A DNA stretch of 64,000 bases from Eledone cirrhosa (taxonomy: Eukaryota). A model generated the notes under the pieces. The model was not told where the DNA came from and did not search any database. It saw only the letters and a list, made by a program, of their open reading frames with translations. Position numbers and translations under genes: made by a program. The number at the start of each line of letters is the position of its first letter. Positions within the stretch are counted from its first letter, which is position 1. Shown one piece after another: positions 7,898 through 62,494 of this stretch. The DNA is taken from NCBI GenBank assembly GCA_964016885.1, contig OZ024740.1, positions 242,730,001 through 242,794,000 of the forward strand, in the 5' to 3' direction.

Positions 7898-8245
7898 TCA
7901 TCATCATCATCATCATCATCATTTTACGTCCGCTTTTCCCTGCTTGCAAGGGTGGGATGGGAACTGATTCTGGCTTGATTTCTACAGCTGGATGCCCTTC
8001 CTAACACCAACCTCATTTACAGTGAGTGCTGGGTGCTTTTTTGCCATGGCACCTCCACATCCACTTTGCAGTGGAATGATAGGGACCCCAGTCCCTGTCA
8101 TCTCATTTCTACAGCTGAGTAAACTGGAGCAATGTGAAATAAAGTGTCTTGCTCAAGGAAACAACACATCACCCGGTCTGAGAATTGAACTCACAACCTT
8201 TCGATTGCAAGGCCAATGCTCTAACCACTAAGCCATGTGCCTCCA
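7898..8245 (-). mobile_element. tRNA-CORE-like SINE with RTE-derived 3' tail (family S2)
   Basis: Head GGAGGCACATGGCTTAGTGGTTAGAGC...GTTCAATTCT, central TCCTTGAGCAAGACACTTT, tail ggttggtgttaggaagggcatccagctgtagaaa plus (GAT)n shared with RTE R1. Confidence 0.85.
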
Positions 8246-31619: not shown

Positions 31620-31910
31620 ATAATATATAAGATCAAAAGATGGTTAAAAGAGTTCCATGTATTTTATTATGCGGATTTCAAAAACAAATATCATCATGCA
31701 ATAACATTTGTGTTTTCATCAGATAAAATAGGAAGACATGATATGAAGGTTAAAAAACACTTGTGAATAGTGCAGTTTTAAATCAACATATGTTGATTTA
31801 AAACCACCCTTTGATCTTATATATTATTTATACTCCAGTCCTACAAACTGTAGAGTGCTTCTTATCCGATATCTGCATTGCTTTATTGTACTACAATAAA
31901 ACTCACCTCC
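31620..31910. mobile_element. Second copy of the hammerhead fold-back element with one arm largely deleted
   Basis: 31620-31789 matches 44761-44930; fold-back aatcaacat|atgttgatt; 31805-31910 is the reverse complement of about 44678-44785. Confidence 0.85.
31660..31730 (-). ncRNA. Type I hammerhead ribozyme candidate
   Basis: tattttat-CTGATGA-36-nt stem-loop II-GAAA-tccgca-TA-ataaaata on the minus strand. Confidence 0.65.
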
Positions 31911-32392
31911 TACATATATATATATTTATGTACAAGATCAAATATAGGCATTATGTGTCTGCTTGTATGTGTATAAATATCAGTATCAATTTATGCATAT
32001 GCATTGTATTTCTTTGTAGATGTATATATGTGTATAAATTCATATATTAGCATTATGAGGTTGTATGTATTTATATGTGATTGTATGTGTACTTACCTGT
32101 ATTTAGAGGTCTATAAATTTATACATATCTGTGTGTGTGCATATTTGTCTGTGGGTTGAGTGTATGTTAGTAATAGCAAACCTGTGTCTCTGTGTGTCGC
32201 TATGATTGAAAGTGTATATTTGTTCACCAGAGTGGTATGTGTAAAAACAACATAAAAAACTAGATATAAGTTAAGTCATTTAAGTTTAACAAAAAGTAAA
32301 CGAGATTTTTATATATTTACCACACAAATGATGCTGAGTAGCACTGTTAATATATCTATATCTATATCTATCTCTCTATCTCTCTCTCTCTC

Positions 32393-34909: not shown

Positions 34910-36935
34910 ATCATCATTATCATTGTTTTAATGTCCATTTTCCTCACTAGCAATGGTTGGACAGTTCTACACAGACCAAGTCAGCACTGAAGTAAAGCTA
35001 CTGATCTCCCAGACAGGCCAGGAATATCTGTCTTGCTTATGTACTCTCTCACATTCTACAAAGTGCACAGAAGAGGTTGTCATGTCTTTGACACAACTCT
35101 GGGTCCTCCCAACCCTTTGTTTGGAAAGTTTTCTATGGCTGGATGCCCTTCCTATCATGAACCACTTTACAGTGTGTACTGGATATATTTATAATGTAGA
35201 TCATCAAACACAAGGGAGGCTGTCATGTCCTTGACATGACTGAAGGGTTTTCAAAACCCTTTGTTTGGCAAGCCCTCCATGGATGGGTGTCCTTCCTATC
35301 ACTAGCAGAAATGTGTGTGGGGCTGGGGTGTGTGTGGTGAGGGTGGTGTAGTAGTGTTGATAATAGTTGTTATGAGTGGTAGAGGAATGGGGGACACAGG
35401 GGTAGCTCAGGCCACATTGTATGTTGTAGGTTGGGTCTTCTTCAGCACTGCATAGCACCAGCCCAAATGGTCTTTAGTCATTTCTGTTGTAAGGCATAGT
35501 TTTTAAGTCTGATCATCACAATCGCATCCCATATCTTCCTGGGTCTACCTCTTCCATAGGTTCCAGCCACTAGGGTTTCTCTACATTTCTTCATGCAACT
35601 GTTATTTTCCATGTGCTTCATATGTTCTTACAAACACAATCTTCTCTCATGCACACTACATTCAATTCCTCTTATGCCAAGTTTTTCTCTCGGTTTGCTT
35701 ATGCTATGTTGTTCATACACATTAACATTACACATCTATCAGAGCATAGACTCTTCATTTCTTTCTAGCCTCCACAGGTCTTCTGCAGTTAAGGTCTTTC
35801 ACTGCCATATAACATTGCGGTTCACACAGGTATCATACAGTCTATCCTTCACTCTGAGAGAAAAACATTTTGTTGTTAGCAGAGATAATAGAACTCTAAA
35901 CTTCTTCCAGCCTCTTCTTATTCCCCAGCTTGTACATCTTCCTCCATGGCTAATTTGGTTACCTAGGTTGCAAGAGCTATCAACAAATTCTATGGAGATC
36001 CACCCTGCCATCCCTAGGCAGCTGAAGGAATCTATTTCACATGTGCTGTTTGTGCTCACTTCCCCTTTGCATCTTATGAAATTTCTGCCCACTCCTTTGT
36101 GACATATCGAACAACACCAATTTCCTGATGGTACCACCTTCCTGTCTTCTTTCCTACTTATTAAAACTGTTGTCTTTGCTAAATTTACTTTTAGACTTTT
36201 CAACTCTAGGTTCTTCCATACTTGAGATTTTGCTTCTAACTCTCCTACAGATTCAGCTATGAGGAATAGGTTGTCAGCATATAGGAGCTCCCATAAAGTG
36301 CCAGTTTTAAACCACTTAGTGATGGCCTGAAGAACAATGATAAATGGGAATGGACTGACAACTGGTGGACCCCCACCTGCACTTTAACTTCCTCAATGTA
36401 CTCATTGCTCCTCTATACATGGCCTGCATATGGCCCTCACAAGCCATTTCTCTGCACCTAGATTCCTACATGCCCACCAGATTGTAGAGTGAGAGACCTC
36501 ATAAAAGGCCTTCTCTAGATCTGCAAATGTTAGTTACAGTGGCTTACTCTTCACTAAGTACCTTTCCTATAGTTGTCTCATCAGAAAAAAGGCACTGGAA
36601 GTACCCCCTACTTGGCATAAATCCTAACTGCATCTTATTTAACTTGATTCTTTCCCTAATTAGTTTTACTATAACCATTTCAGCAACTTTCATGACCCAC
36701 TTGATGCCTCTATAGTTACTTCATTCTAGTGCATCTACTTTGCTATAGTAGCAATTTATGATAATGTGGCTACACCTGTCATTGAGTGACACCATACTGT
36801 ACTACTTGGTTAACTGTACATCTGACTAGCTTATAAGCTACTAAGCTGATGCTTTTAGCGCCCCAATGACTATACCAAAGCTACTGCTTTCCCTATCTTC
36901 ATGTCCTTAATTGCTTTATCTATTATAATGCTGTC
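34910..36935 (-). mobile_element. Degenerate RTE LINE (R1)
   Basis: WELLYADNL, LKVNLAKT, CSICHKGVGRN, GWKKFR, KDRLYD remnants plus 3' UTR motifs. Confidence 0.8.
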
Positions 36936-38710: not shown

Positions 38711-39065
38711 GGAGGCACATGGCTTAGTGGTTAGAGCATTAGCCTTGCAATCGAAAGGTTGTGAGTTCAATTCTCAGACCGGGTGATGTGTTGTTTCCTT
38801 GAGCAAGACACTTTATTTCACATTGCTCCAGTTTACTCAGCTGTGGAAATGAGATGAGAGGGACTGGGGTCCATATCATTCCACTGCAAAGTGGTTGTGG
38901 AGGTGCCACGGCAAAAAAGCACCCAGCACTCACTGTAAATGAGGTTGGTGTTAGGAAGGGCATCCAGCTGTAGAAATCAAGCCAGAATCAGTTCCCGTCC
39001 AACCCTTGCAAGCAGGGAAAAAATGAACGTAAAAATGAAATGAATGAAATGAAAATGAAAATGAA
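38711..39065 (+). mobile_element. S2 SINE
   Basis: Near-identical to the reverse complement of 7898-8245; tail degenerated to (AATGA)n. Confidence 0.85.
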
Positions 39066-40017: not shown

Positions 40018-42866
40018 TCATCATCATCATCATCATCATCATCGTTTAACGTCCATGTTCCACGCTTGCATGGGTTTGGACGGGAGTTTTCCCACTTGAG
40101 GCAAAAGTGGTTGTCTTGCTCGCATAGGACTGTCTGGCGGGTTTTCTACAGTTGGATGCCCTTCCTAACACCAACCACATTTACAGTGTGGGGCTGGGAG
40201 GTTTTTACCGTGTTGCCTACACGGCCACATTACAGCGTAGACTGTCTGGCGGGTTTTCTACAGCTGGATGCCCTTCCTAACACCAACCACATTTACAGTG
40301 TAGGGCTGGGAGGTTTTTACCGTGTTGCCTACACGGCCACATTACAGCGTGGACTGTGTGTTTTTTTTGTCGTGACACCTACATGATCTCATTTGTTTCG
40401 GCCTGGATGTTGTCGCACCAACATAACTTTACATTGAAAGGGGCGGTGTGGATGGGGTGGGGGTGGTGGGACGGGGTGTATTTTGATAGAGATGCCTACT
40501 GACTGTAGTAGGTTTTACTTTGTATTTAGGTAAGGCGGGTCTTCTCTATTACTGAGTACCGCCAAAGGTCTCGGTCCAGTGACATTGTCTTGGAGAGGTG
40601 TAAGTGGGTGAGGTCGGAATTTATCAGCTCGTCCCAGGTTTTTCTGGGTCTGCCTACTCCGTGGCTACTATCTATCTTTATTGCCCTGCACTTTGCTATA
40701 CAGCTGTCGTCTTTCATGTGCATCACGTGACCATACCAATGTAGCCTTCTCTCGAGTAAGCAACATATGATCCCTCTTATTTCTAATTTTTTCCTTAGTT
40801 CGTTTATGCTTTGCCGTTCACGTATATTACTATTGCACATCCAGCGGAGCATGCAAGTTTCGTTTCTCTCTAGTCTGCGTATATCCTCTGCACACAATGC
40901 CCAGGTCTCACTGCCATGCAACATTGCTGTTCGTATGCAGGCATCGTACAACCTGCCTTTCATTTTTAGAGAGAACCCTTTAGCGGCTAATAGTGGTATA
41001 AGCTCTCTGAACTTTTTCCATCCAGTTCTGACTCTAGCTACTGTACTTTCAGAGCACCCTCCCCCACTGCTGATTTTGTCACCCAGGTAACGGAAGCTGT
41101 CCACTATTTCTATAGAACCCTCTGCGCAATTGAAAGAGCTAGTATTTGTGGGCACTTGCTGCTACTTATTGCACCAGAGCACCGGCCACATGTAAAATCT
41201 GTGTTCTTAGTTAGCTTACCTGTGATCCCACTACATCTTTTATGCACCCATACTTTGCATTTTGGACATAAAATGGAGTTTCTACCTACGCCTTTCCTAC
41301 ACACTGAGCATGGCCATTTCCTGGAAGGGACCGGCGCCTTATTTTCTTTCCTACAAACTAGAACTTTAGTCTTAGCCAGGTTAATTTTAAGGCCTTTTGA
41401 TTCTAGGCCGTGCTTCCATGTTTGGAATTTCTTCTCTAGCTCGGCCATTGATTCAGCTATGAGCATTAGATCATCTGCGTATAGGAGTTCCTATGGGCAG
41501 CCGGTCTTGAACTCCTCTGTTATAGCCTGAAGGGCAATAATAAATAGTAGGGGGCTAAGAACAGAGCCCTGATGGACACCAACTTTTACGCTAAACTCTT
41601 CACTATATTCGTTGTTAATTCTAACCTTGCTGACTGTTTCTTTATACATGGCTTGTATAGCTCTCACAAGCCATTCATCAACACCTAGTTTTCTAAGAGC
41701 CCACCAGATAATGGAACGAGGGACTCTGTCGAAGGCTTTCTCCAAGTCGACAAAGGCTAAGTATACGGGTTTACTTTTAGCTAGGTACTTCTCCTGTAGT
41801 TGTCGTACAATGAAAAGAGCGCATTTCATCTAGATCGATTCTCTCTCTGATTAGTTGCACTATTACTTTTTCCGTGACCTTCATGACCTGGTCGATTAAT
41901 TTAATGCCTCTATAGTTACTCCTATCTAGGGCGTCTCCTTTACCCTTGTAACAGTTAATGATGATGCTGCTACGCCAGTCCTTCGGAACAACCCCATTCT
42001 GTATGACTTGGTTTACTATCCGGGTGACCATAGTGTGTCCCACCATTCCAGAGGCCTTCAGCATCTCAGCAACTATTTCCGAAGGCCCAGCAGCCTTACC
42101 CGTCTTCATATCTTTGATTGCCTTACTTATTATACTACCTTCAACTAACACTGCTGGTCCCTCTATTGGATCGATCTGGGGGAGACTATCCTTCTCCCAT
42201 TTATTCTCCTCATTTAGTAGCCTCTCGTAGTGACACTTCCAAGTGACCTTCTTATCAGCGTCAGTGATGGCGAGTATGCCATCATCATTTAGTACACACT
42301 TCTCCCCAACAATATCACGGTTTTCCTTGACACATTGCCTAGCAATCCTGAACACCTCACGTTTTTGGTCCTCGCGTTGTAGAACATGCTTGAACTTTCT
42401 TTCCTCTGCTTCCCTTCTTGCGAAGTACACTTGTCTCCTAGCTTCCCTCCTGGCCACTTGATAGTCTTCTCTACTTCCCCCATCCCGCCATACTTTCCAA
42501 GCCTGCTTTTTGGCCTTAATCGACTCCTCCACCTTACTGTTCCACCACCATGTTACTCTCCTCCTGCCTATAGGCCTGCTCCAGCCACAGACTTCGTCTG
42601 CCGCCATCAGCAGGTTTGCTTTCAGGAATTCCCACTGTCCCTCTATATTGTACGACTCTAAATGCTCTTCCTTACTGTCGAAAGCATCAAGTAATATGCT
42701 TTGAAATTTATTTCTGGCTGTGGGGTCCTTTAGCTTCCATATTTTTCTCCTGAGGATAGTCCTCTTCTGCTGTCGAGTACGTCTCGTCCTGACTATGAGG
42801 TCACTAATTATCAGTCTATGTTGGGAGGTGCATTCTTCATGGGGGAGGGATTTAGTGTTTATAACA
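40018..42866 (-). mobile_element. RTE LINE (R1), 5'-truncated, few lesions
   Basis: SQHRLIISD (APE end), TWWWN, NYRGIKL, FVDLEKAFD, GVHQGSVLSP, YADDL, C4HC3 finger, FRYLGD, LHWYGHV; one stop, frameshifts, a deletion after DEM; (GAT)n tail; 112-bp 3' UTR duplication 40128-40351. Confidence 0.95.
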
Positions 42867-42894
42867 GTCACTCTGTCATGTGTATATATATATA

Positions 42895-44165
42895 CAGGGT
42901 GTGGATGATATTTTTTCGCAATTTTCAACTGCTAATTTTATGCAATTTTTTTTTACTTCCATTGTCACTCTTGTCTTCATAAAAACAGTGACTATATTTC
43001 CATTATTTATTTTCAGAATAATTGATTATGAATAATTCTGAACCTCCAAATTTGTGGAAGAGACACGGAGTCCTTCTTGGAATCTGTACCGGGAGGACAA
43101 ATAAGGAAATTTCAAACTTTTTCAGCATCAGCAGGAGAATGGTGGATATGGTCAGAAAGGAATTGGAAGATTCAGGATTCGACTACGAAGCAACATCAGA
43201 GAGGAAAACACATGATCGACGATCTGACGCCTTCAGAACGCCCGAGTTCGTCGCTGAAGTTCAGGATATCATCAACAATGACCCTAGCAAGTCGATGCAT
43301 GCCATTGCAAGGGAGAAAGGCGTGGATGAAAAGCTCATTAGGCTGGTGGTACATGAAGACATTTGCTATGTTTCATACAAGATGAGGAAAGGACAATTTC
43401 TGTCAAAGGCGATGCAAGAAGCATGCAAAGAAGCTGAAAGTTGAAACACCCACTGGAGCCAGACATGCAGTGGTTTTTCTCCAACGAGAAAAACTTCTGC
43501 CAAGACCAGCAGATCAACTCCCAGAACAACAGGTGGCTCGCTGTCTCATCCAAAGACGTGCCCAGAGTCATGTAGACAAAGTTTCCAGCGACAACATCTG
43601 TCTTAGGTGTTGTCAGCAGTCAAGGGGATGTCATGCCACCTCACTTCTTCCCTGAGGGCCTCAAGCTGAACACCGATGGCTACATCCGCGTTCTGGGCAA
43701 GGTAGTAAAGCCCTGGATCGACCAGGTAGCTGCAGGTAGGCTGTACGTGTGGCAGCACGACTCAGCACCCTGCCATACCAGCCGAAAGACCCAAGCCTGG
43801 CTGTCAGAGAACTTCGTCGACCAGACTTCACCTGACAACTGGCCTCCCAGCTCGCCTGACTGCAACCCCCTCAACTTCTTTGTGTGGGGCGCAGTGGAAT
43901 GAGACACCAACAGATCTAACTGCAATATGAAAGACGATCTGAAGGCCAGGTTCACAAGTGCCTTTTGGGGCCTAAGTCGAGGGACAGTGACGAAGGCCTG
44001 TAGCCGGTTCCGAAGCCACCTTGAGGCCGTCATCAAAGCCAATGGCGGATTAATTGAGTGAGATCGAAAGAACAAGTCATGAAGACAAACTGACCAAAGT
44101 TTGATAAATATATCTTAGAAAATAAAACTACTGTGTAATCTCGCGAACAAAATATCGTCCTCACC

Positions 44166-44629: not shown

Positions 44630-44677
<48 letters not shown>

Positions 44678-44800
44678 GGAGGTGAGTTTTATTGTAGTAC
44701 AATAAAGCAATGCAGATATCGGATAAGAAGCACTCTACAGTTTGTAGGACTGGAGTATACATAATATATAAGATCAAAAGATGGTTAAAGGAGTTCCATG

Positions 44801-44871
44801 TATTTTATTATGCGCATTTCAAAAACAAACATCATCATGCAATAATATTTGTGTTTTCATCAGATAAAACA
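44801..44871 (-). ncRNA. Type I hammerhead ribozyme candidate (left arm)
   Basis: Mirror image of 44996-45066. Confidence 0.75.
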
Positions 44872-44995
44872 GGAGGACATGATATGAAGGCTAAAAAACA
44901 CTTGTGGATAGTGCAGTTTTAAATCAACATATGGATATGTTGATTTAAAACTGCACTATCCACAAGTGTTGTTTAGCCTTCATATCATGTCCTCC

Positions 44996-45066
44996 TGTTT
45001 TATCTGATGAAAACACAAATATTATTGCATGATGATGTTTGTTTTTGAAATGCGCATAATAAAATA
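44996..45066 (+). ncRNA. Type I hammerhead ribozyme candidate (right arm)
   Basis: Stem I tgttttat/ataaaata; CTGATGA 45004-45010; stem II with 15 of 16 positions paired; GAAA 45047-45050; palindromic stem III TGCGCA; AUA triplet, predicted cut after 45058. Confidence 0.75.
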
Positions 45067-45233
45067 CATGGAACTCCTTTAACCATCTTTTGATCTTATA
45101 TATTATATATATATATATATATAGTAATAATAATAAAATTGAAGTCTAAAATACAAAGAGTGCTCGATAAGGATAAATATATATCAAATATATAAGAACC
45201 ATAGAGCAAATATTTATTAAAATAACAGATTAA

Positions 45234-45637: not shown

Positions 45638-47934
45638 GGAAACCGAAAGATTCTCGGCTACAGAGTTAAGAATAAAGTAAATAAAATACAGAGGTAATTG
45701 AAATTAAATATATACATACACGCATCCATATACGTACATACACAAGCATACGCGAAAACACTCACCATGGGTATGCAAATACAAGCACGTACACAAAATA
45801 AACACGCACGCACACACAGAACCCACGCAACACCAGTACCCGCACACATACGAATGTATACACCAAATACATATAAAAATATATATGTGTGTACATATAA
45901 TTAAATAAATGTCTATAGATATACACACATAAATACGTATATAACGCGCGCAAACACATACCTACATGTAAATACACATATGTTCGCAGACCTACGTCAA
46001 CCAAAACACAAAGTACACATATAGACACACCCTACATACGTACGAACCCGCTTACTCACACATGCAAAACTCGTATACACATAACCAAATAACTCGTATA
46101 CACATAACCAAATGCACATGTACCAGTATATATAATATATACGCCATAACATATACAAGCAAATATATGTACGAGAAAGTATACATACTTTCACTAAACA
46201 TACAGGTGATATATACTTACCTATGCAAATAAGTAATGGTATAAACATAACATATACTTAGCTACCACATCAAGACGTAAAATATCTGCGTATAGTTCAT
46301 ACTATCCGTTAGGGTATAATGTGGGGCTGTAATACAGGAAAGTTTTGTCCAATTTATGTTTACAAGCCGAAAATGCGTCAGATTTTTTGTTTAAGGTGTG
46401 GTCTTTGGCGTAGAGTATTTCCAGGGCCTCAGCGGCGCAGAGGTCACATTGTCTTTTATTTCCGTTATACAATCTAGCTTTAGCTAGGATCTCCCAGTGT
46501 AACTTATATTGGGTGTGGTTGTCTTTTAGACTCCAGATATAAGCTGAAAGTGACGTCATATTCCTTCTTAAAGCGTTAAGAAAGAATGGGTATGCATGTA
46601 AAGAAGCTGCTTGAATCTATTGGCGGTTAACCCTATGTAGGCCCTACGGGACGTGGGTGTTTCAACCTTACATTTGTAGACAATGTTACTAGAGAGGCAT
46701 TTCCCGGATAGGGGGCAGTCAACCCGATTCCTACAATTACAGTTAGTACTAGCTACAGGGTTGCACGTGTTCCTACGGCTAGGTAGTTTAGCTAAATTTG
46801 AAGCTGTGATGTTATGTGCAAGGTTAGGAGTCTTAGAGTAAGAAATTTTAATGGTATTTCTATTAAAAATTATACTATATTTATGTGCTGGGGGGGGAAA
46901 TGCTTCATAATAAGGAGAGAAAGATCTTAGCTAATGGTGTGGCCACCTCCATATTATATGGTGGGTTATACCATATAATGCTTCGGGATCTATTTCTTCT
47001 AGGTCTATTCTCGTACTCTGTTTTATGCTACCTTATCGACAAATCCACCCAGAGCTAGAGTTTCATTGTAATATGTGGAATGGTCGTTGAAAATATGCTC
47101 GTTAGTAGATAGACGGGAAAGCCTCAAAGAAACGTTTCTTACCAGGTTCTTGGTTATGCTGGCAGAATGGTTAGAATGCTTACTTATGTAATTAAGCGTA
47201 TCATTCGACTTTCTATACGGGTAATGCAAGCCATTCGATAAATTGAGGGTAACGTCGAGGCAATTAACGACCGAGAGGTTGGCTTCAACCTGTATGGAGA
47301 AGTTGAAGCCTTTAAAAAAGGCTGTGAGTTCTTTTCTGAACCTGTCGCAAGCACGTGGGCCGCACTTTGTCATGGTCAAAAGACCATCATCACGGTACAA
47401 ACCACCGCCCACGTTGGGGAATTCTTCCTTGATAGAGACAAGAAGTAAAAGGCCGATAAGATCAGTAACCTCCGCAGAATCGCTGGCGCCCATACACACG
47501 TCGAATGGGGTACTATTAGATTGTTTAATCCAAATAGAGTCGTCGAAATTAATCACCGACTTAGGGGCATTGAGGGTGACATCAACTTCGAAATCCTTAA
47601 CCACTGTATATATCACCTGTATGTTTAGTGAAGGTATGAGTACTTTCTCGTACGTATATTTGCTTGTATATGTTATGGCGTATATATTATATATACCCAT
47701 GCAAGCGTGGAAGATGGACGTTAAACGATGATGATGATGATGATGATGACTGGTACATGTTGTGGCCAATGCCAGGTCAGATGACCATGTCTTGCTCATT
47801 CAGAACTGATTTTGGCTTGATTTCTATAGCTGGATGCCCTTCCTAACACCAACCTCATTTACAGTAAGTACTGGGTGTTTTTTTTTGTCGTAACACCTAC
47901 ATGACCACTTTACAGTGGAAGGGGTGAGTAGCAG

Positions 47935-48486: not shown

Positions 48487-48871
48487 GGAGGCACATGGCT
48501 TAGTGGTTAGAGCATTGGCCTTGCAATCGAAAGGTTGTGAGTTCAATTCTCAGACCAGGTGATGTGTTGTTTCCTTGAGCAAGACGCTTTATTTCACATT
48601 GCTCCAGTTTACTCTGCTGTAGAAATAAGATGATAGGACTGGGGTCCCTATCATTCCACTGCAAAGTGGTTGTGGAGGTGAGATGGCAAAAAAGCAGCCA
48701 GCCCACACTGTAAAGTGGACGTGTAGGCGCCACGGAAAAAAAGCACCCAGCACTCACTGTAAATGAGGTTGGTGTTAGGAAGGGCATCCAGCTGTAGAAA
48801 TCAAGCCAGAATCAGTTCCCGTCCCACCCTTGCAAGCAGGGAAAAGCGGACGTAAAATGAGGATGATGATG

Positions 48872-55699: not shown

Positions 55700-58600
55700 T
55701 TTCAACACCATTACGGTCACATCGTTGGCATAGGCCGATTCTGCTTTTTACAGTTCTGGTTCCATCGAGATGCCCTGCAATAGCTCTAACTTCCACAGCA
55801 GTGGCTGAAGAGTCAGCACATACAGAATGGAAGAGAGAGGGCATCATTGGCAGATGGAACACATGATTTGGGATAGATCCAATAGGTAGCCATTCACCTT
55901 GACTGCTGAGCAGATGTTGCTGCACATGGCAGCGATCCAGCTTCTGAAGACGGGACCGAAACCGGCCACCTTGAGAACCGCTTCCAAGTATTGATGGTCA
56001 ACCCTATCAAATGCCTTAGATTGATCTAAATTGATCAGAGCCCCAGTGAAGCCAGGTTTACACCCTACCCTCTCTATGATGTATCGCATGAGGTGGAGGT
56101 TGTCATATATGGACCTGGTCAGGATTGCACATGCTTGCATCACCCCCACCAGGTTCTCGACAATGAGCGCCAGCCTTGTTGTTAATACCTTGGCCAAAAT
56201 CTTTAACAGAGTTATGGGTCTGAAATTACTTATGTTATCCCCTTTGTTATCATTTTTCCTGATCAGCATTACTACGCCTCTGCTTACAGAACTGGGAATT
56301 CTCCCGTTCTGATGCCAGGTGCAGTAGACAGCTTCAAGGACGTCAGAGAACAAGTCTCGCATGCCTACGTAAAACTCATAGGGTAGACCATTTAAACCGG
56401 GTCATTTGTGTTTCCTTCTGTGATCGGCCTTTCGCAGCTCTCTGCATCCGTGTTCGAGAGTCGTGGTAGGCCATTGAGATAGGAACTGAAGTACATTACC
56501 CTGCTCAACACATCATTCTGTGTGAACAGTTGTGCAAAGTGCTGCTGGAAGGCCATGCACATCTGCTTGGATTCAAGTAGTACACGTCCTTGGCTTGCCA
56601 AAGACCGAATCGTGGATTTGTTGCCACTTTTCTCCTCTGCCACTCGGGCCCAGCTAACAGCTTTCGCTCCTTCGTTTCTCAGAGCAGGTGTTCTACAACC
56701 TTCGTGTTTCATGCTGAAGAACTGGTCTAGTGCCATTCTTGCCACTAACACATTAGCTGTACTGCCACTCCTAAGTGCCTCTTCTACTTTAGCTACCAAT
56801 TCCTTTTCTGTCTTTTTCTTCTCTAAAGCTACCTTGCTAAAGGCTATTGGTTCTACTCTAATTGCTCTCTTGAGAGAGCACCACCACCTGTTGTTGATGA
56901 TGGCCCCCGACAACTGCCGTTTAACTAAAGTGCTAATCCATTTACTGTGAGCTTATGTATCACAAGCAACAAGTTTAGCTTCCAGTATCCGGGTCCCTGT
57001 TTATATGATGACTATGCAGGTCACTAATTTGTGGTCTGAATAGGCAACCATGTGCATTTTTGTGGACAGCTTAATGTTTCCCTATTGTTTTGTCTAATTA
57101 GAAATCTATCTAAATATGATCTAGAAGACCCAGTATGGTTGCTCCACGTCCACAGTGGTGCACTTGGGAAATCTAGTCGATATCTATCAACCAGTTGTAA
57201 TTGGCTGATAAGATTTGTAAGGCTATTCCCCCCCCTTTCTATCACATGCTCCTACATAGTCCCAACATGCATCCAAGATACCATTCCAGTCCCCCACTAA
57301 CAGTAAAGAACGAGACAGTCCCAGAAAAGACTCTTGGTGCTTAAAGAACTCCAGCCTTGATGCCCCAATTGAGGCATAGATGGCCACCAGTATGAAAGCT
57401 CCACTTTCACTACCATTCACGTCTAGTACCACCAACTTGCCCTCCAGGTCCAAGAAGATTGTCTGTACTTCGAGATCCAGGTCTTTTCAAAACAAAACAG
57501 CAACTCCCCCCTCCACCTCCTGGCTGACAGAGAGATGCGTAGATCTCAAAGTCATCGAACATGGGAGTTAACTGCTACTTGACATGATTCCCTGACTCGC
57601 TGATGGCTATCACATCTATACAGTGTGACCTGAGGTCATTTAAAAGTTGGCCCTGTTTCCAGGACAACCCCAGGCCACGCCCATTCAGACATCCAACTTG
57701 TACAGTCGCCATGTTGGTGAAGAAGAGTTAGGGAGAGAAAAAGGCAGGAACACTTACCTTTTAGTTTCCTGGAGATCGGATTGTTCGATCTCCATGTTGG
57801 TGGTGGTGGGGTTTGTCTGGTGGGATGGGAAAACATTTCAGGAGTACATGGTTCAGGGTTTTTTAAGAAAACTGTAAGTTTGTGTTGGAAGTCTTATCAG
57901 TTTTAGGTGTAATGCTGTGTTTGTGCTTGTCAAGGTTTTTCCTTCTGTCTGAATGGTGGGGTCTTTCATGATGGCCTCCATTAGGTCTTTATTTGTAGTG
58001 TTAATGTATGTGTAGTGTGGTTTGAGTTTTTGCTGTAATGTTTCTGTTTGTTGTTTGTTCTCTAGTTTTCTTTTGATGGTAGGCATTTGTGCTTGTGGTT
58101 GTGTTGGTGTTTGTTTTGCTGGGAGGTGGTGTCTGTGTTGTTGATGTGGTTGTCGTTTGTGGTGGTGTCTGTGTGTTTGTGTTGGTGATTGGCAGTTTTT
58201 TGTTTTTGCAGTGTCTCCTTTTTTTGTTTTTTTTACTTTTGGGGTTCCTCTTCATCCTCGCTTGGAGATGCAGTGGTTGCAGCATTTGAGGTGTTTTCAT
58301 CGGGAGTATGTGGGAGGGGCATGTTGTGTTTGTGTGTGTGTTTGTGGGAGTGTTAGACAGAGGGGGAAGAGGTAGGATAGAGTCCTTCAGGGGAATTTTT
58401 GGTGTGGTGTCTTTTTTGGTTTGTGATGGTGGAGAGGATATTGATGGTTTTTTGAGTTGCGTTCTTGGTTTTCGGGTGTTGCTGTTGGCGTTTGGGTGTT
58501 GGTAGCAACACCTTGTTGTGTTTTTGTGTATTTAGCATTGGGCAGAATGCTTTTATATGTGTATCTTTTCCACATCGAAAACACTGTGTTTTTCTGCCCT

Positions 58601-61440: not shown

Positions 61441-62494
61441 TTCTAGGGCGGGTAAAATTCCCGAGATCCATGGATGAGTTTTCTCCAGCAGTTTCTGTCC
61501 CTCATTATCGCTGCCATGTCCTTTGTTTCCAACAGACCAGTGTCTGTCCTTAGGGCATCAACATATGTTAACCTTGGTCTTCCTCTTCAAGTGTATCCAT
61601 GTAGGGGCTCCCACAGGATCACTGAGTGCAGTGTCAACTCTGGATGTCGGTGAGCATGTCCAGCTAACCCCAGTCTCCTCTGTGTCACTTTTGAACTGAC
61701 TTTTGGGAGGCTCCCATACAGATCTGAGTTTTTCATCCTCAGTGTATACTGATTAATGTTCAGAACTATCCTCAGCATTCTCATGTAGCACCCATCCACC
61801 ATCTGAGTGAGTTTTTTGGTCAGTGTCCAAGTCTCAGACCCATACAGCAGCACAGACTCCACTACTGCAATGAAGAGGCGGATATTCAGGTCTTTACGAA
61901 GGTCCAACTTCCACACCAATCTCAAGCTGTGGCACGCCGCCCAGGTTTTGCTCTTCCTCTCAACCACATCATCTTCCGTATTCCCAATCTTTGCTCCCAA
62001 ATACAGGAAGTCCTCAACCAATTCTCTACCAGATATTTTGTTTTAGTCTCATTCATTCTCAGCCTCACACTCATCGACACAGTCTCAACCTGCTGCATCA
62101 AATCCTCTGCCTCCTTCACTGTATTTGTCACCAAAACTATGTCGTCGGCAAATTCAGCATCCGATATCTTTTTCGCCTTAACTCTCCTGCTCTATGCCTT
62201 CCTGCAGTCATGGTTTTCATTGACTTTAGGAAGGCCTTTGATTCTGTGGACCGTCACTGCCTAATGAAGATCTTAAAGGTTTATGGAATCCCCAAGAAGA
62301 TGGTGGACCTGATATCACTGCTCTACACCAACACCAAAGCCCAAGTCATTACACCTGATGGGATGACAGAGTTCTTTAAGATACTGGCTGGAGTGCTCCA
62401 GGGAGATACATTGGTTCCCTACCTTTTTATCATCGTAGTGGACTATTGTATGCGCCTTGCACTGGAGAAACACCAGGAACCTGGCTTTACTGTA
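61441..62494. mobile_element. RTE LINE with 5' inversion
   Basis: Minus piece 61441-62197 (SRRVKAKKISDAEFADDIVL...FLYLG...LLYGSETW...GHAHRH); plus piece 62198-62494 (FIDFRKAFDS...GVLQGDTL...GFTV); (TA)n flanks. Confidence 0.85.

What the first reader, a model, noticed from the sequence alone, without database searches (positions are those of the whole stretch)
44678..45106. Mobile fold-back element with a hammerhead ribozyme on each strand
Seen: a 346-bp palindrome (172-bp arms, one mismatch, 2-nt spacer), each arm containing a full type I hammerhead fold with a palindromic TGCGCA stem III. The copy at 31620-31910 has the same fold-back point and outer end in opposite orientation, with one arm collapsed at a tttaa(a)ac microhomology. 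Established: PLE pseudo-LTRs carry minimal hammerheads with palindromic stem III and can be inverted. Inference: the palindrome itself is the amplified unit, a non-coding retrozyme-like element. A transcript from either strand would contain a ribozyme plus its own antisense, so self-cleavage would compete with a long dsRNA hairpin (possible ADAR or Dicer substrate).
Basis: partly seen in the sequence, partly recalled or inferred. Interest (0 to 1): 0.8.

Follow-up and report, generated by a model that had tools for sequence, protein, structure and literature searches.

The report
Mirror-image stubs of a Penelope retroelement
This hairpin-shaped DNA with a ribozyme motif on each strand is the shortest kind of insertion left by an abundant Penelope-like jumping gene, likely built anew at each landing by joining two DNA copies of the front end of one RNA, rather than a separate self-amplifying element.

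Summary
The palindrome is real: 172-bp arms, one mismatch, GG spacer, a type I hammerhead motif per arm. It is not an independent non-coding element. Arm plus outer 83 bp are the pseudo-LTR and 'tail' of a young (TA)n-targeting Penelope-like retroelement (PLE) with Hydra-clade motifs and an intact 809-aa ORF elsewhere in the genome. Long copies show the same inverted, one-sided-tail layout. Of 65 tail-selected insertions, 52 carry an adjacent inverted arm but only 7 fold back at this point in both arms. Centres vary; short and long copies interleave on a tree; arms of one insertion are nearly identical. A sharp 5'-end hotspot with an extra G suggests the capped RNA start. Likely mechanism: two cDNAs primed from opposite target strands on one RNA, joined by microhomology. 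Opposite-strand hammerhead pairs from truncated PLEs are in print (PMC4209133), and this scan noted similar cases in other genomes. New family of a known kind; the junction statistics give a testable handle on how PLE inverted repeats form.

The parts
44678..44760 (-). PLE 'tail': in tandem autonomous copies it runs on into the 5'UTR and the ATG; here it ends in the (TA)n target
44761..44932 (-). tailed arm = pseudo-LTR positions 1-172, 97.6% identical (with tail) to the 5' pLTR of the ORF-intact copy in L098
44795..44874 (-). type I hammerhead motif (C3 at 44863, predicted cut after 44809)
44933..44934 (.). GG spacer at the fold-back junction; one G is likely copied from the RNA cap (inferred)
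44935..45106 (+). tail-less arm = pseudo-LTR positions 1-172, ending in the (TA)n target
44993..45072 (+). type I hammerhead motif (C3 at 45004, palindromic stem III 45050-45057, predicted cut after 45058)
44640..44677 (.). (TA)n target microsatellite, left side
45107..45123 (.). (TA)n target microsatellite, right side
31625..31791 (-). second insertion: full tail-less arm, hammerhead motif with a stem III substitution
31802..31913 (+). second insertion: tailed arm from pLTR position 147, joined through a short stretch matching the arm's start

Best explanation
The palindrome is the shortest class of inverted insertion of an abundant, young Penelope-like retroelement with Hydra-clade motifs, and it is likely built anew at each insertion from two cDNAs that both run to the probable capped 5' end of the element's RNA. 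Shown: the arm and outer 83 bp are the pLTR and tail of an element with an intact 809-aa ORF; insertions sit in (TA)n; one end carries the tail and the other stops at pLTR position 168-171; centres vary; the arms of one insertion match each other. Inferred: transcription starts at pLTR position 1 (C|ATATG); the endonuclease nicks both target strands; one strand primes reverse transcription at the end of the tail (about 257), the other at about 170, probably on the same RNA; both cDNAs run toward the cap, which often adds one base (G on the sense strand); the two cDNA 3' ends anneal through ATAT or other microhomology, often with short templated inserts, and repair seals them head to head. The hammerhead is the element's own pLTR ribozyme, predicted to cut best as a dimer through its palindromic stem III, and would be buried in a read-through transcript of the palindrome.
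For: Autonomous partner: 809-aa ORF in L093, L098, L104, L111 (4 of 20 fetched loci), with YRDD, DKT, CxCx5C, a GIY-YIG-type motif, CxxC and CxH; its predicted fold matches reverse transcriptases and telomerases best; 3 of 31 aligned proteins hit Pfam GIY-YIG. 5,538 arms run on into the 3'UTR. Tail on exactly one side in 68 of 71 inverted pairs; in the tail-selected set the inverted partner's outer end is tail-less in 49, tailed in 2, absent in 14 of 65; this fits the two RT start sites bounding the tail in the anole PLE (PMC11167929). Independent templating: some insertions have non-overlapping arms (tailed 180-257 with tail-less 1-171), so neither arm is copied from the other. Shared template: 0.8% difference within versus 3.3% between insertions, 692 of 706 polymorphic cells concordant versus at most 566 in 2000 shuffles, 10 variants private to one insertion yet in both arms. 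RNA start: 5,434 of 14,522 arms lack the templated C before ATATG (G 2,587, T 2,061, A 786); 16 of 16 one-base spacers among 50 listed places are G/C (counted by eye); an extra G marks capped 5' ends in full-length L1 insertions (PMC11702581); D. virilis Penelope has an internal promoter in its pLTR (PMC2377424). 7 of 21 internal folds have the tailed arm 14-19 nt short of the other (permutation p 0.0004; 0.0008 without one duplicate junction), as if one RT trailed the other. Short and long copies interleave: 17 label changes, at least 7 forced by well-supported branches, 0 of 200 bootstrap trees with one clade.
Against: No RNA evidence for the start site or for cleavage is in hand. A one-base G spacer is ambiguous, because it is also the templated C of the opposite arm, and about 5 of 30 sampled G cases fit a templated (T)TG copy. 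Arm-to-arm identity could also come from gene conversion after insertion or from two RNAs of the same source locus. 755 identical perfect centres are also what a few palindromic masters would give, and the tree is somewhat clustered (17 changes versus 22.8 shuffled, 2 of 500 shuffles as low). The 14-19-nt cluster was noticed in the data before it was tested, and includes the first 30 loci in which it was seen. The samples are not random: 30 loci were chosen by likeness to the query, 65 by a non-A base after the tail. Pfam finds no family in the 809-aa protein itself. No two-sided covariation in the hammerhead.
Confidence: 0.78

Rival explanations
1. The palindrome is itself a non-autonomous master: it is transcribed whole and copied in trans, so the centre is inherited.
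For: 755 identical perfect centres; L001 and L002 have identical tailed arms and share a one-arm T-to-G change; cis-acting pLTRs sufficed for trans-mobilisation in Adineta (PMC3846280).
Against: Tailed-tailed, tailless-tailless and cross distances between insertions are equal (3.6-3.7%) while own-partner distance is 0.6% (50 short copies). No short-specific diagnostic column, and interleaving with long copies. The T-to-G change occurs at only 34 exact places, in long and short copies and on either arm type. L001 and L002 differ at the centre. Short copies lack the sequence downstream of the tail, which the anole PLE needed on its template (PMC11167929).
Confidence: 0.08
2. One cDNA snaps back on its own 3' end (self-priming at ATAT or a small hairpin), copies itself, and the endonuclease trims the second arm at the internal TATATTAT site, giving the tail-less end.
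For: The terminal ATAT is self-complementary; many centres hold short templated repeats of the arm's start; self-priming was proposed for Penelope palindromic junctions (PMC3846280); the tail-less end lies at a TA-rich, target-like site.
Against: It predicts that the tail-less arm never reaches further 5' than the tailed arm. In the tail-selected set it usually does (offset above +4 in 30 of 43 insertions with both ends in or at the pLTR start, below -4 in 4), and some arms do not overlap at all. Snap-back may still explain the small templated inserts.
Confidence: 0.08
3. Two cDNAs are joined as proposed, but position 1 is a strong RT stop or an RNA processing site rather than the transcription start, and the arms match because of later gene conversion or two RNAs from one locus.
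For: pLTR positions 1-50 can fold into a weak stem-loop (-8.1 kcal/mol); long perfect palindromes can convert (general knowledge); the G signal is partly ambiguous.
Against: G is the commonest non-templated base before position 1 in a 37% G+C window, appears where no partner arm exists (L211, L215) and on both arms in CATG centres. Arms kilobases apart are as concordant as adjacent ones. The hotspot is 123 nt upstream of the hammerhead cut, so it is not the ribozyme's product.
Confidence: 0.15

Closest known systems
Hydra clade of C-terminal EN+ Penelope-like elements (Craig et al. 2021, PMC8557442; includes Hydra-1_Obim from Octopus bimaculoides)
   Same: Single ORF, DKT, CxCx5C linker, CxxC and CxH around the endonuclease end, no CCHH, hammerhead, (TA)n targets; RT motifs line up by eye with the paper's supplementary Hydra alignment.
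   Different: Unit is 3.7 kb rather than under 3 kb; RWT instead of RWK; protein and hammerhead differ clearly from Hydra-1_Obim as read in the supplement; tail about 86-89 nt rather than 30-40.
Inverted 5'-truncated pLTR plus one-sided 'tail' of PLE insertions (PMC8557442 fig. 2 legend; Arkhipova et al. 2013, PMC3846280)
   Same: Head-to-head inverted copy at the 5' end, tail at one end only, palindromes at the junction; a 15-bp overlap is noted for Pen2a.
   Different: Here both copies are reduced to the pLTR alone, in more than a thousand insertions, with a single-base 5' hotspot and an extra G. Arkhipova et al. proposed self-priming on an antisense template; the data here favour two sense-templated cDNAs.
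Opposite-strand hammerhead pairs in Schistosoma mansoni (Cervera and de la Pena 2014, PMC4209133)
   Same: Two hammerheads 100-700 bp apart on opposite strands, ascribed to truncated PLEs; short palindromic helix III acting as a dimer.
   Different: The motif here has a longer stem I (8+3 bp) and stem II (about 15 bp) than their minimal hammerheads.
Two-site internal RT initiation of the anole Poseidon PLE (Frangieh et al. 2024, PMC11167929)
   Same: Two start sites bound the tail; both target strands are cut and extended; AT-rich target.
   Different: That work does not address the inverted junction in the parts read; there the hammerhead overlaps the ORF start, here the cut lies 186 nt before the ATG.
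L1 twin priming (as described in PMC11702581)
   Same: Second target strand primes internally on the RNA; inversion junction with microhomology; cap-derived G at full-length 5' ends.
   Different: L1 twin priming gives non-overlapping inverted pieces; here the two cDNAs usually overlap and duplicate the pLTR, which requires strand displacement or a second RNA.
Animal non-LTR retrozymes (PMC7229834; bioRxiv 10.64898/2026.07.22.740005)
   Same: Short, non-coding, type I hammerhead, related to PLE pLTRs.
   Different: Retrozymes are head-to-tail tandem repeats giving circular RNA; this is a head-to-head pair with only one sense ribozyme per strand.

Membership tests
EN+ Penelope-like element | single ORF with RT and C-terminal GIY-YIG endonuclease | tested here: met
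   809-aa ORF; YRDD at 366 and LIY...YFG at 687; fold hits RTs and telomerases; GIY-YIG Pfam in 3 of 31 aligned proteins, none in this one
EN+ Penelope-like element | partial tandems forming pLTRs | tested here: met
   L098, L111, L094, L103 carry pLTR+tail upstream of the ORF and again downstream
EN+ Penelope-like element | adjacent inverted 5'-truncated copy; tail at one end only | tested here: met
   52 of 65 with adjacent inverted arm; 68 of 71 pairs with one tail
EN+ Penelope-like element | hammerhead motif in the pLTR | tested here: met
   core CTGANGA in 186 of 193 arms
Hydra clade | DKT, CxCx5C, CxxC and CxH, no CCHH | tested here: met
   against PMC8557442 section 11; absence of CCHH judged by eye
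Hydra clade | RWK motif | tested here: inconclusive
   RLRWT at 44
Hydra clade | insertion into (TA)n | tested here: met
   30 of 30 loci flanked by TA repeats
Hydra clade | generally under 3 kb (a tendency in the paper, not a strict criterion) | tested here: not met
   unit 3,714 nt in L098
Hydra clade | groups with curated Hydra proteins in an RT tree | not tested
   reference proteins were only read in the supplement; no tree with them was built
Type I hammerhead ribozyme | conserved core, NUH triplet, three stems | tested here: met
   98.6% of 840 cells paired, changes in stems are G-U/A-U type
Type I hammerhead ribozyme | compensatory covariation | tested here: inconclusive
   0 pairs changed on both sides; 319 of 500 shuffles as well paired; sequences 95% identical
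Type I hammerhead ribozyme | match to an Rfam hammerhead model | tested here: not met
Type I hammerhead ribozyme | self-cleavage | not testable with these tools
   dimer fold predicted at -42.1 versus 2 x -15.0 kcal/mol; no assay
Non-LTR retrozyme | head-to-tail tandem repeats with a hammerhead in each unit | tested here: not met
   arms are head to head in the 30 best copies
Non-LTR retrozyme | own non-autonomous lineage | tested here: not met
   interleaved with long copies; no arm-specific lineages
Non-LTR retrozyme | circular RNA intermediate | not testable with these tools
   no RNA holder listed
MITE or foldback DNA transposon | symmetric terminal inverted repeats around a conserved inherited interior | tested here: not met
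   ends asymmetric, centre variable, sequence belongs to an RT element

The most novel reading that the evidence does not exclude
PLE inverted repeats arise by overlapping twin priming: two RT subunits prime from opposite target strands at the two tail-bounding sites of one capped RNA, the rear one displacing the front one's cDNA and stalling about 15 nt behind it, and the two cDNA ends are then joined. This genome records the reaction thousands of times, and its 1,500 or more perfect stubs would act as outward-firing promoter pairs or as dsRNA sources when read through.
Probability: 0.45. Interest if true: 0.65.

Novelty: new member of a known kind. Interest (0 to 1): 0.42.

Why it matters
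The element itself is a new family of a described clade, and its layout is in print. The value is mechanistic: Craig et al. 2021 (PMC8557442) name the formation of PLE tandem and inverted structures as undefined. This family offers thousands of young junctions in which the tail rule, arm-to-arm identity, a cap-like G at one base and a 14-19-nt lag can be counted, and it has intact ORF copies that make the model testable in vitro. It also warns annotators that such palindromes will look like MITEs, miRNA hairpins or retrozymes (Rfam's best hit at the centre is a miRNA model), and it marks more than a thousand potential long dsRNA hairpins in a probable cephalopod genome, a group recalled (no call) for heavy A-to-I editing.

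Tried and rejected
Rfam: no hammerhead family on the window or the arm; miRNA and snoRNA hits are below gathering scores. Pfam and PDB sequence searches gave nothing useful for the ORF. Covariation on 30 arm haplotypes was uninformative. Expression: no RNA holder listed. Four coded contig runs (one study, kind not on record, possibly the assembly's own source) laid on L098:5700-6400 show depth rising at the tail end, about doubling across the pLTR and falling past position 1 (891k to 373k in X1); the tool warns that this depth is no copy number, so it is not counted as support. The one-arm T-to-G change was tested as a marker of a palindromic master and rejected. The tail followed by a non-A base was searched to find the 5'UTR and did not show it, because the element continues with A. 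The mostly positive offset between arms is not taken as evidence for one RNA, since equal processivity from two start sites gives it too. Literature searches for a two-cDNA or cap-G account of PLE inverted repeats found none; the library lacks most subscription papers, so this does not show absence from print. The O. vulgaris repeat paper has no passage on hammerheads or Hydra. Papers seen: PMC8557442 passages, section 11 and supplement passages; PMC11167929 parts 1-2 of 4; PMC4209133 part 1 of 4; bioRxiv 2026.07.22.740005 part 1 of 5 (its supplements are closed); passages only of PMC2377424, PMC3846280, PMC13282606, PMC7229834, PMC11702581.

Full report
1. Observation. The 346-bp palindrome is as described: arms 44761-44932 and 44935-45106, one mismatch, a GG spacer, and an 83-bp unique piece (44678-44760) outside the left arm, all set in (TA)n. 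Each arm reads outward from the centre as a type I hammerhead: 8-bp stem I with a further 3 bp beyond a bulge, CTGATGA, a stem II of about 15 bp, GAA, the palindrome ATGCGCAT and the triplet AUA, with the cut predicted after 45058 (+) and 44809 (-). Rfam does not recognise it. In 193 sampled arms the core is CTGATGA in 178 and CTGACGA, a change at the free position, in 8; stems keep 98.6% pairing through one-sided G-U/A-U changes, but no pair changes on both sides and shuffles do as well. A dimer through stem III is predicted at -42.1 against 2 x -15.0 kcal/mol. The second window copy (about 31620-31913) shares the tail end and fold point but has another centre, a mutated stem III and a tailed arm that resumes at position 147.

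2. What it belongs to. The genome is 3.0 Gb; the only named protein relative is from Argonauta hians, so the host is probably a cephalopod (inference). The 40 best-scored of 434 candidates cover the whole 429 bp; the 30 fetched all lie in TA repeats and have many different centres. A search for the tail end gave two outward-facing tails 3.5 kb apart around an RT-like reading frame. That ORF's DNA has 2,415 candidates, the best 40 at 99% or more. Four of 20 fetched loci hold an intact 809-aa ORF. In tandem copies the unit is 3,714 nt: pLTR from position 1, hammerhead cut at 124, tail to 256, ATG at 310, stop at 2739, then about 1 kb of 3'UTR. The window's tailed arm is 97.6% identical to that pLTR and tail. 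The protein has no Pfam hit, but its model (mean pLDDT 83.5) matches reverse transcriptases and telomerases, 3 of 31 aligned proteins hit GIY-YIG, and it carries the motifs that define the Hydra clade and lines up by eye with the published Hydra alignment. It is a different family from Hydra-1_Obim.

3. Is the palindrome the amplified unit? Mostly not. Genome-wide, 14,522 arms reach position 1; 5,538 run on exactly into the 3'UTR; 755 centres are perfect ATAT overlaps and 838 have 1-25-nt spacers. In a set chosen only by the tail end (65 of the 67 matches; the pair in L061 left out), 52 have an adjacent inverted arm, 27 have at least one arm ending within a few bases of position 1, and only 7 have both. 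Long ORF-bearing copies show the same layout. In 71 inverted pairs the tail is on one side in 68, on both in 1, on neither in 2 (duplicate loci were dropped by a list in the script, and most pairs were selected through a tailed query). The arms of one insertion differ by 0.8% against 3.3% between insertions; among 50 short copies, same-type and cross-type arm distances are equal, so tailed and tail-less arms are not separate lineages. On a tree of 75 tailed arms, 46 short and 29 long copies interleave (17 changes; 0 of 200 bootstrap trees with one clade), with mild clustering that partly reflects how the long copies were chosen. The finding's single mismatch occurs at 34 places of every type and is not a master's mark.

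4. Mechanism. Shown: asymmetric ends, variable centres with microhomology and templated inserts, matching arms, a one-base 5' hotspot. Some insertions have non-overlapping arms (for example tailed 180-257 with tail-less 1-171), and the tail-less arm usually reaches further 5', so neither arm is a copy of the other: two cDNAs. This fits the anole PLE, whose protein cuts and extends both strands and starts at two sites bounding the tail (PMC11167929). The base before position 1 is not the templated C in 5,434 of 14,522 arms, and is then G in 48%; one-base spacers are G/C in 16 of 16 listed cases; G appears even where the arm joins the target directly. An extra G marks capped 5' ends in full-length L1 insertions (PMC11702581) and Penelope has an internal pLTR promoter (PMC2377424), so position 1 is likely the transcription start. 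Part of the G signal is ambiguous. Seven of 21 internal folds leave the tailed arm 14-19 nt short of the other (p 0.0004 by shuffling partners, a post hoc test), which suggests a rear RT stalled behind a front one on the same RNA. Inferred sequence: nicking of both (TA)n strands, priming at about 257 and 170, copying to the cap or to a break, annealing of the two cDNA ends, repair. A read-through transcript of the product has the antisense arm first on either strand and folds into one hairpin, so the ribozyme would be silent there; a transcript starting at the centre would carry a single free arm.

5. Comparison and novelty. Inverted truncated copies with a one-sided tail are standard for PLEs (PMC8557442, PMC3846280), and opposite-strand hammerhead pairs from truncated PLEs were reported in Schistosoma (PMC4209133). 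It fails the retrozyme tests of tandem order and own lineage. It works like L1 twin priming but with overlapping cDNAs. Three searches found no paper giving a two-cDNA or cap-G account of PLE inversions, within a limited library. Earlier notes of this scan on other genomes reached a similar reading; my reading was stated before that look-up, and those notes are not counted as support.

6. Verdict. Real, abundant and explained as a by-product class of a new Hydra-type PLE family: new member of a known kind. Interest 0.42, carried by the testable mechanism rather than by the element.

Noticed in passing
window 46338-47589 (-): Broken ORF remnant of another Hydra-type PLE family, 38-42% amino-acid identity to the 809-aa protein, 1.2 kb from the finding; no hammerhead motif found by pattern in 45700-47800.
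   Followed up: partly
L098 ORF residues about 590-664: Asparagine/threonine-rich, low-confidence stretch between RT and endonuclease, reminiscent of the N-rich inserts in Adineta Penelopes (PMC3846280).
   Followed up: no
L061 2582-2788 and 2793-3011: The element's 3'UTR holds an internal duplication of about 220 bp at 80% identity.
   Followed up: no
L061 2297-5782: Exception to the tail rule: both ends carry the tail; the inverted copy supplies an in-frame ATG for a chimeric 637-aa ORF.
   Followed up: partly
protein P0015: An Argonauta hians protein named 'GATA zinc finger domain-containing protein 14-like' is 37% identical over 616 columns to this PLE protein, so the name is likely wrong.
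   Followed up: partly
L131 and L132 (G000:C4, about 450 kb apart, opposite strands): Two copies with the same unusual centre and variants; a segmental duplication or assembly duplicate is possible.
   Followed up: no
window 8178-8235, 38720-38777, 48496-48553 and repeat families D8, D9, D13-D16: Several dispersed SINE-like families; three copies give near-threshold tRNA matches.
   Followed up: no
window 40529-42931 (-), 55847-56952 (-), 61590-62042 (-), 35802-36383 (-): Open frames that look by eye like LINE reverse-transcriptase fragments (label from recall).
   Followed up: no
L061 6149-7999 (-): Fragments that look by eye like a Helitron/PIF1 helicase next to the PLE insertion (label from recall).
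   Followed up: no
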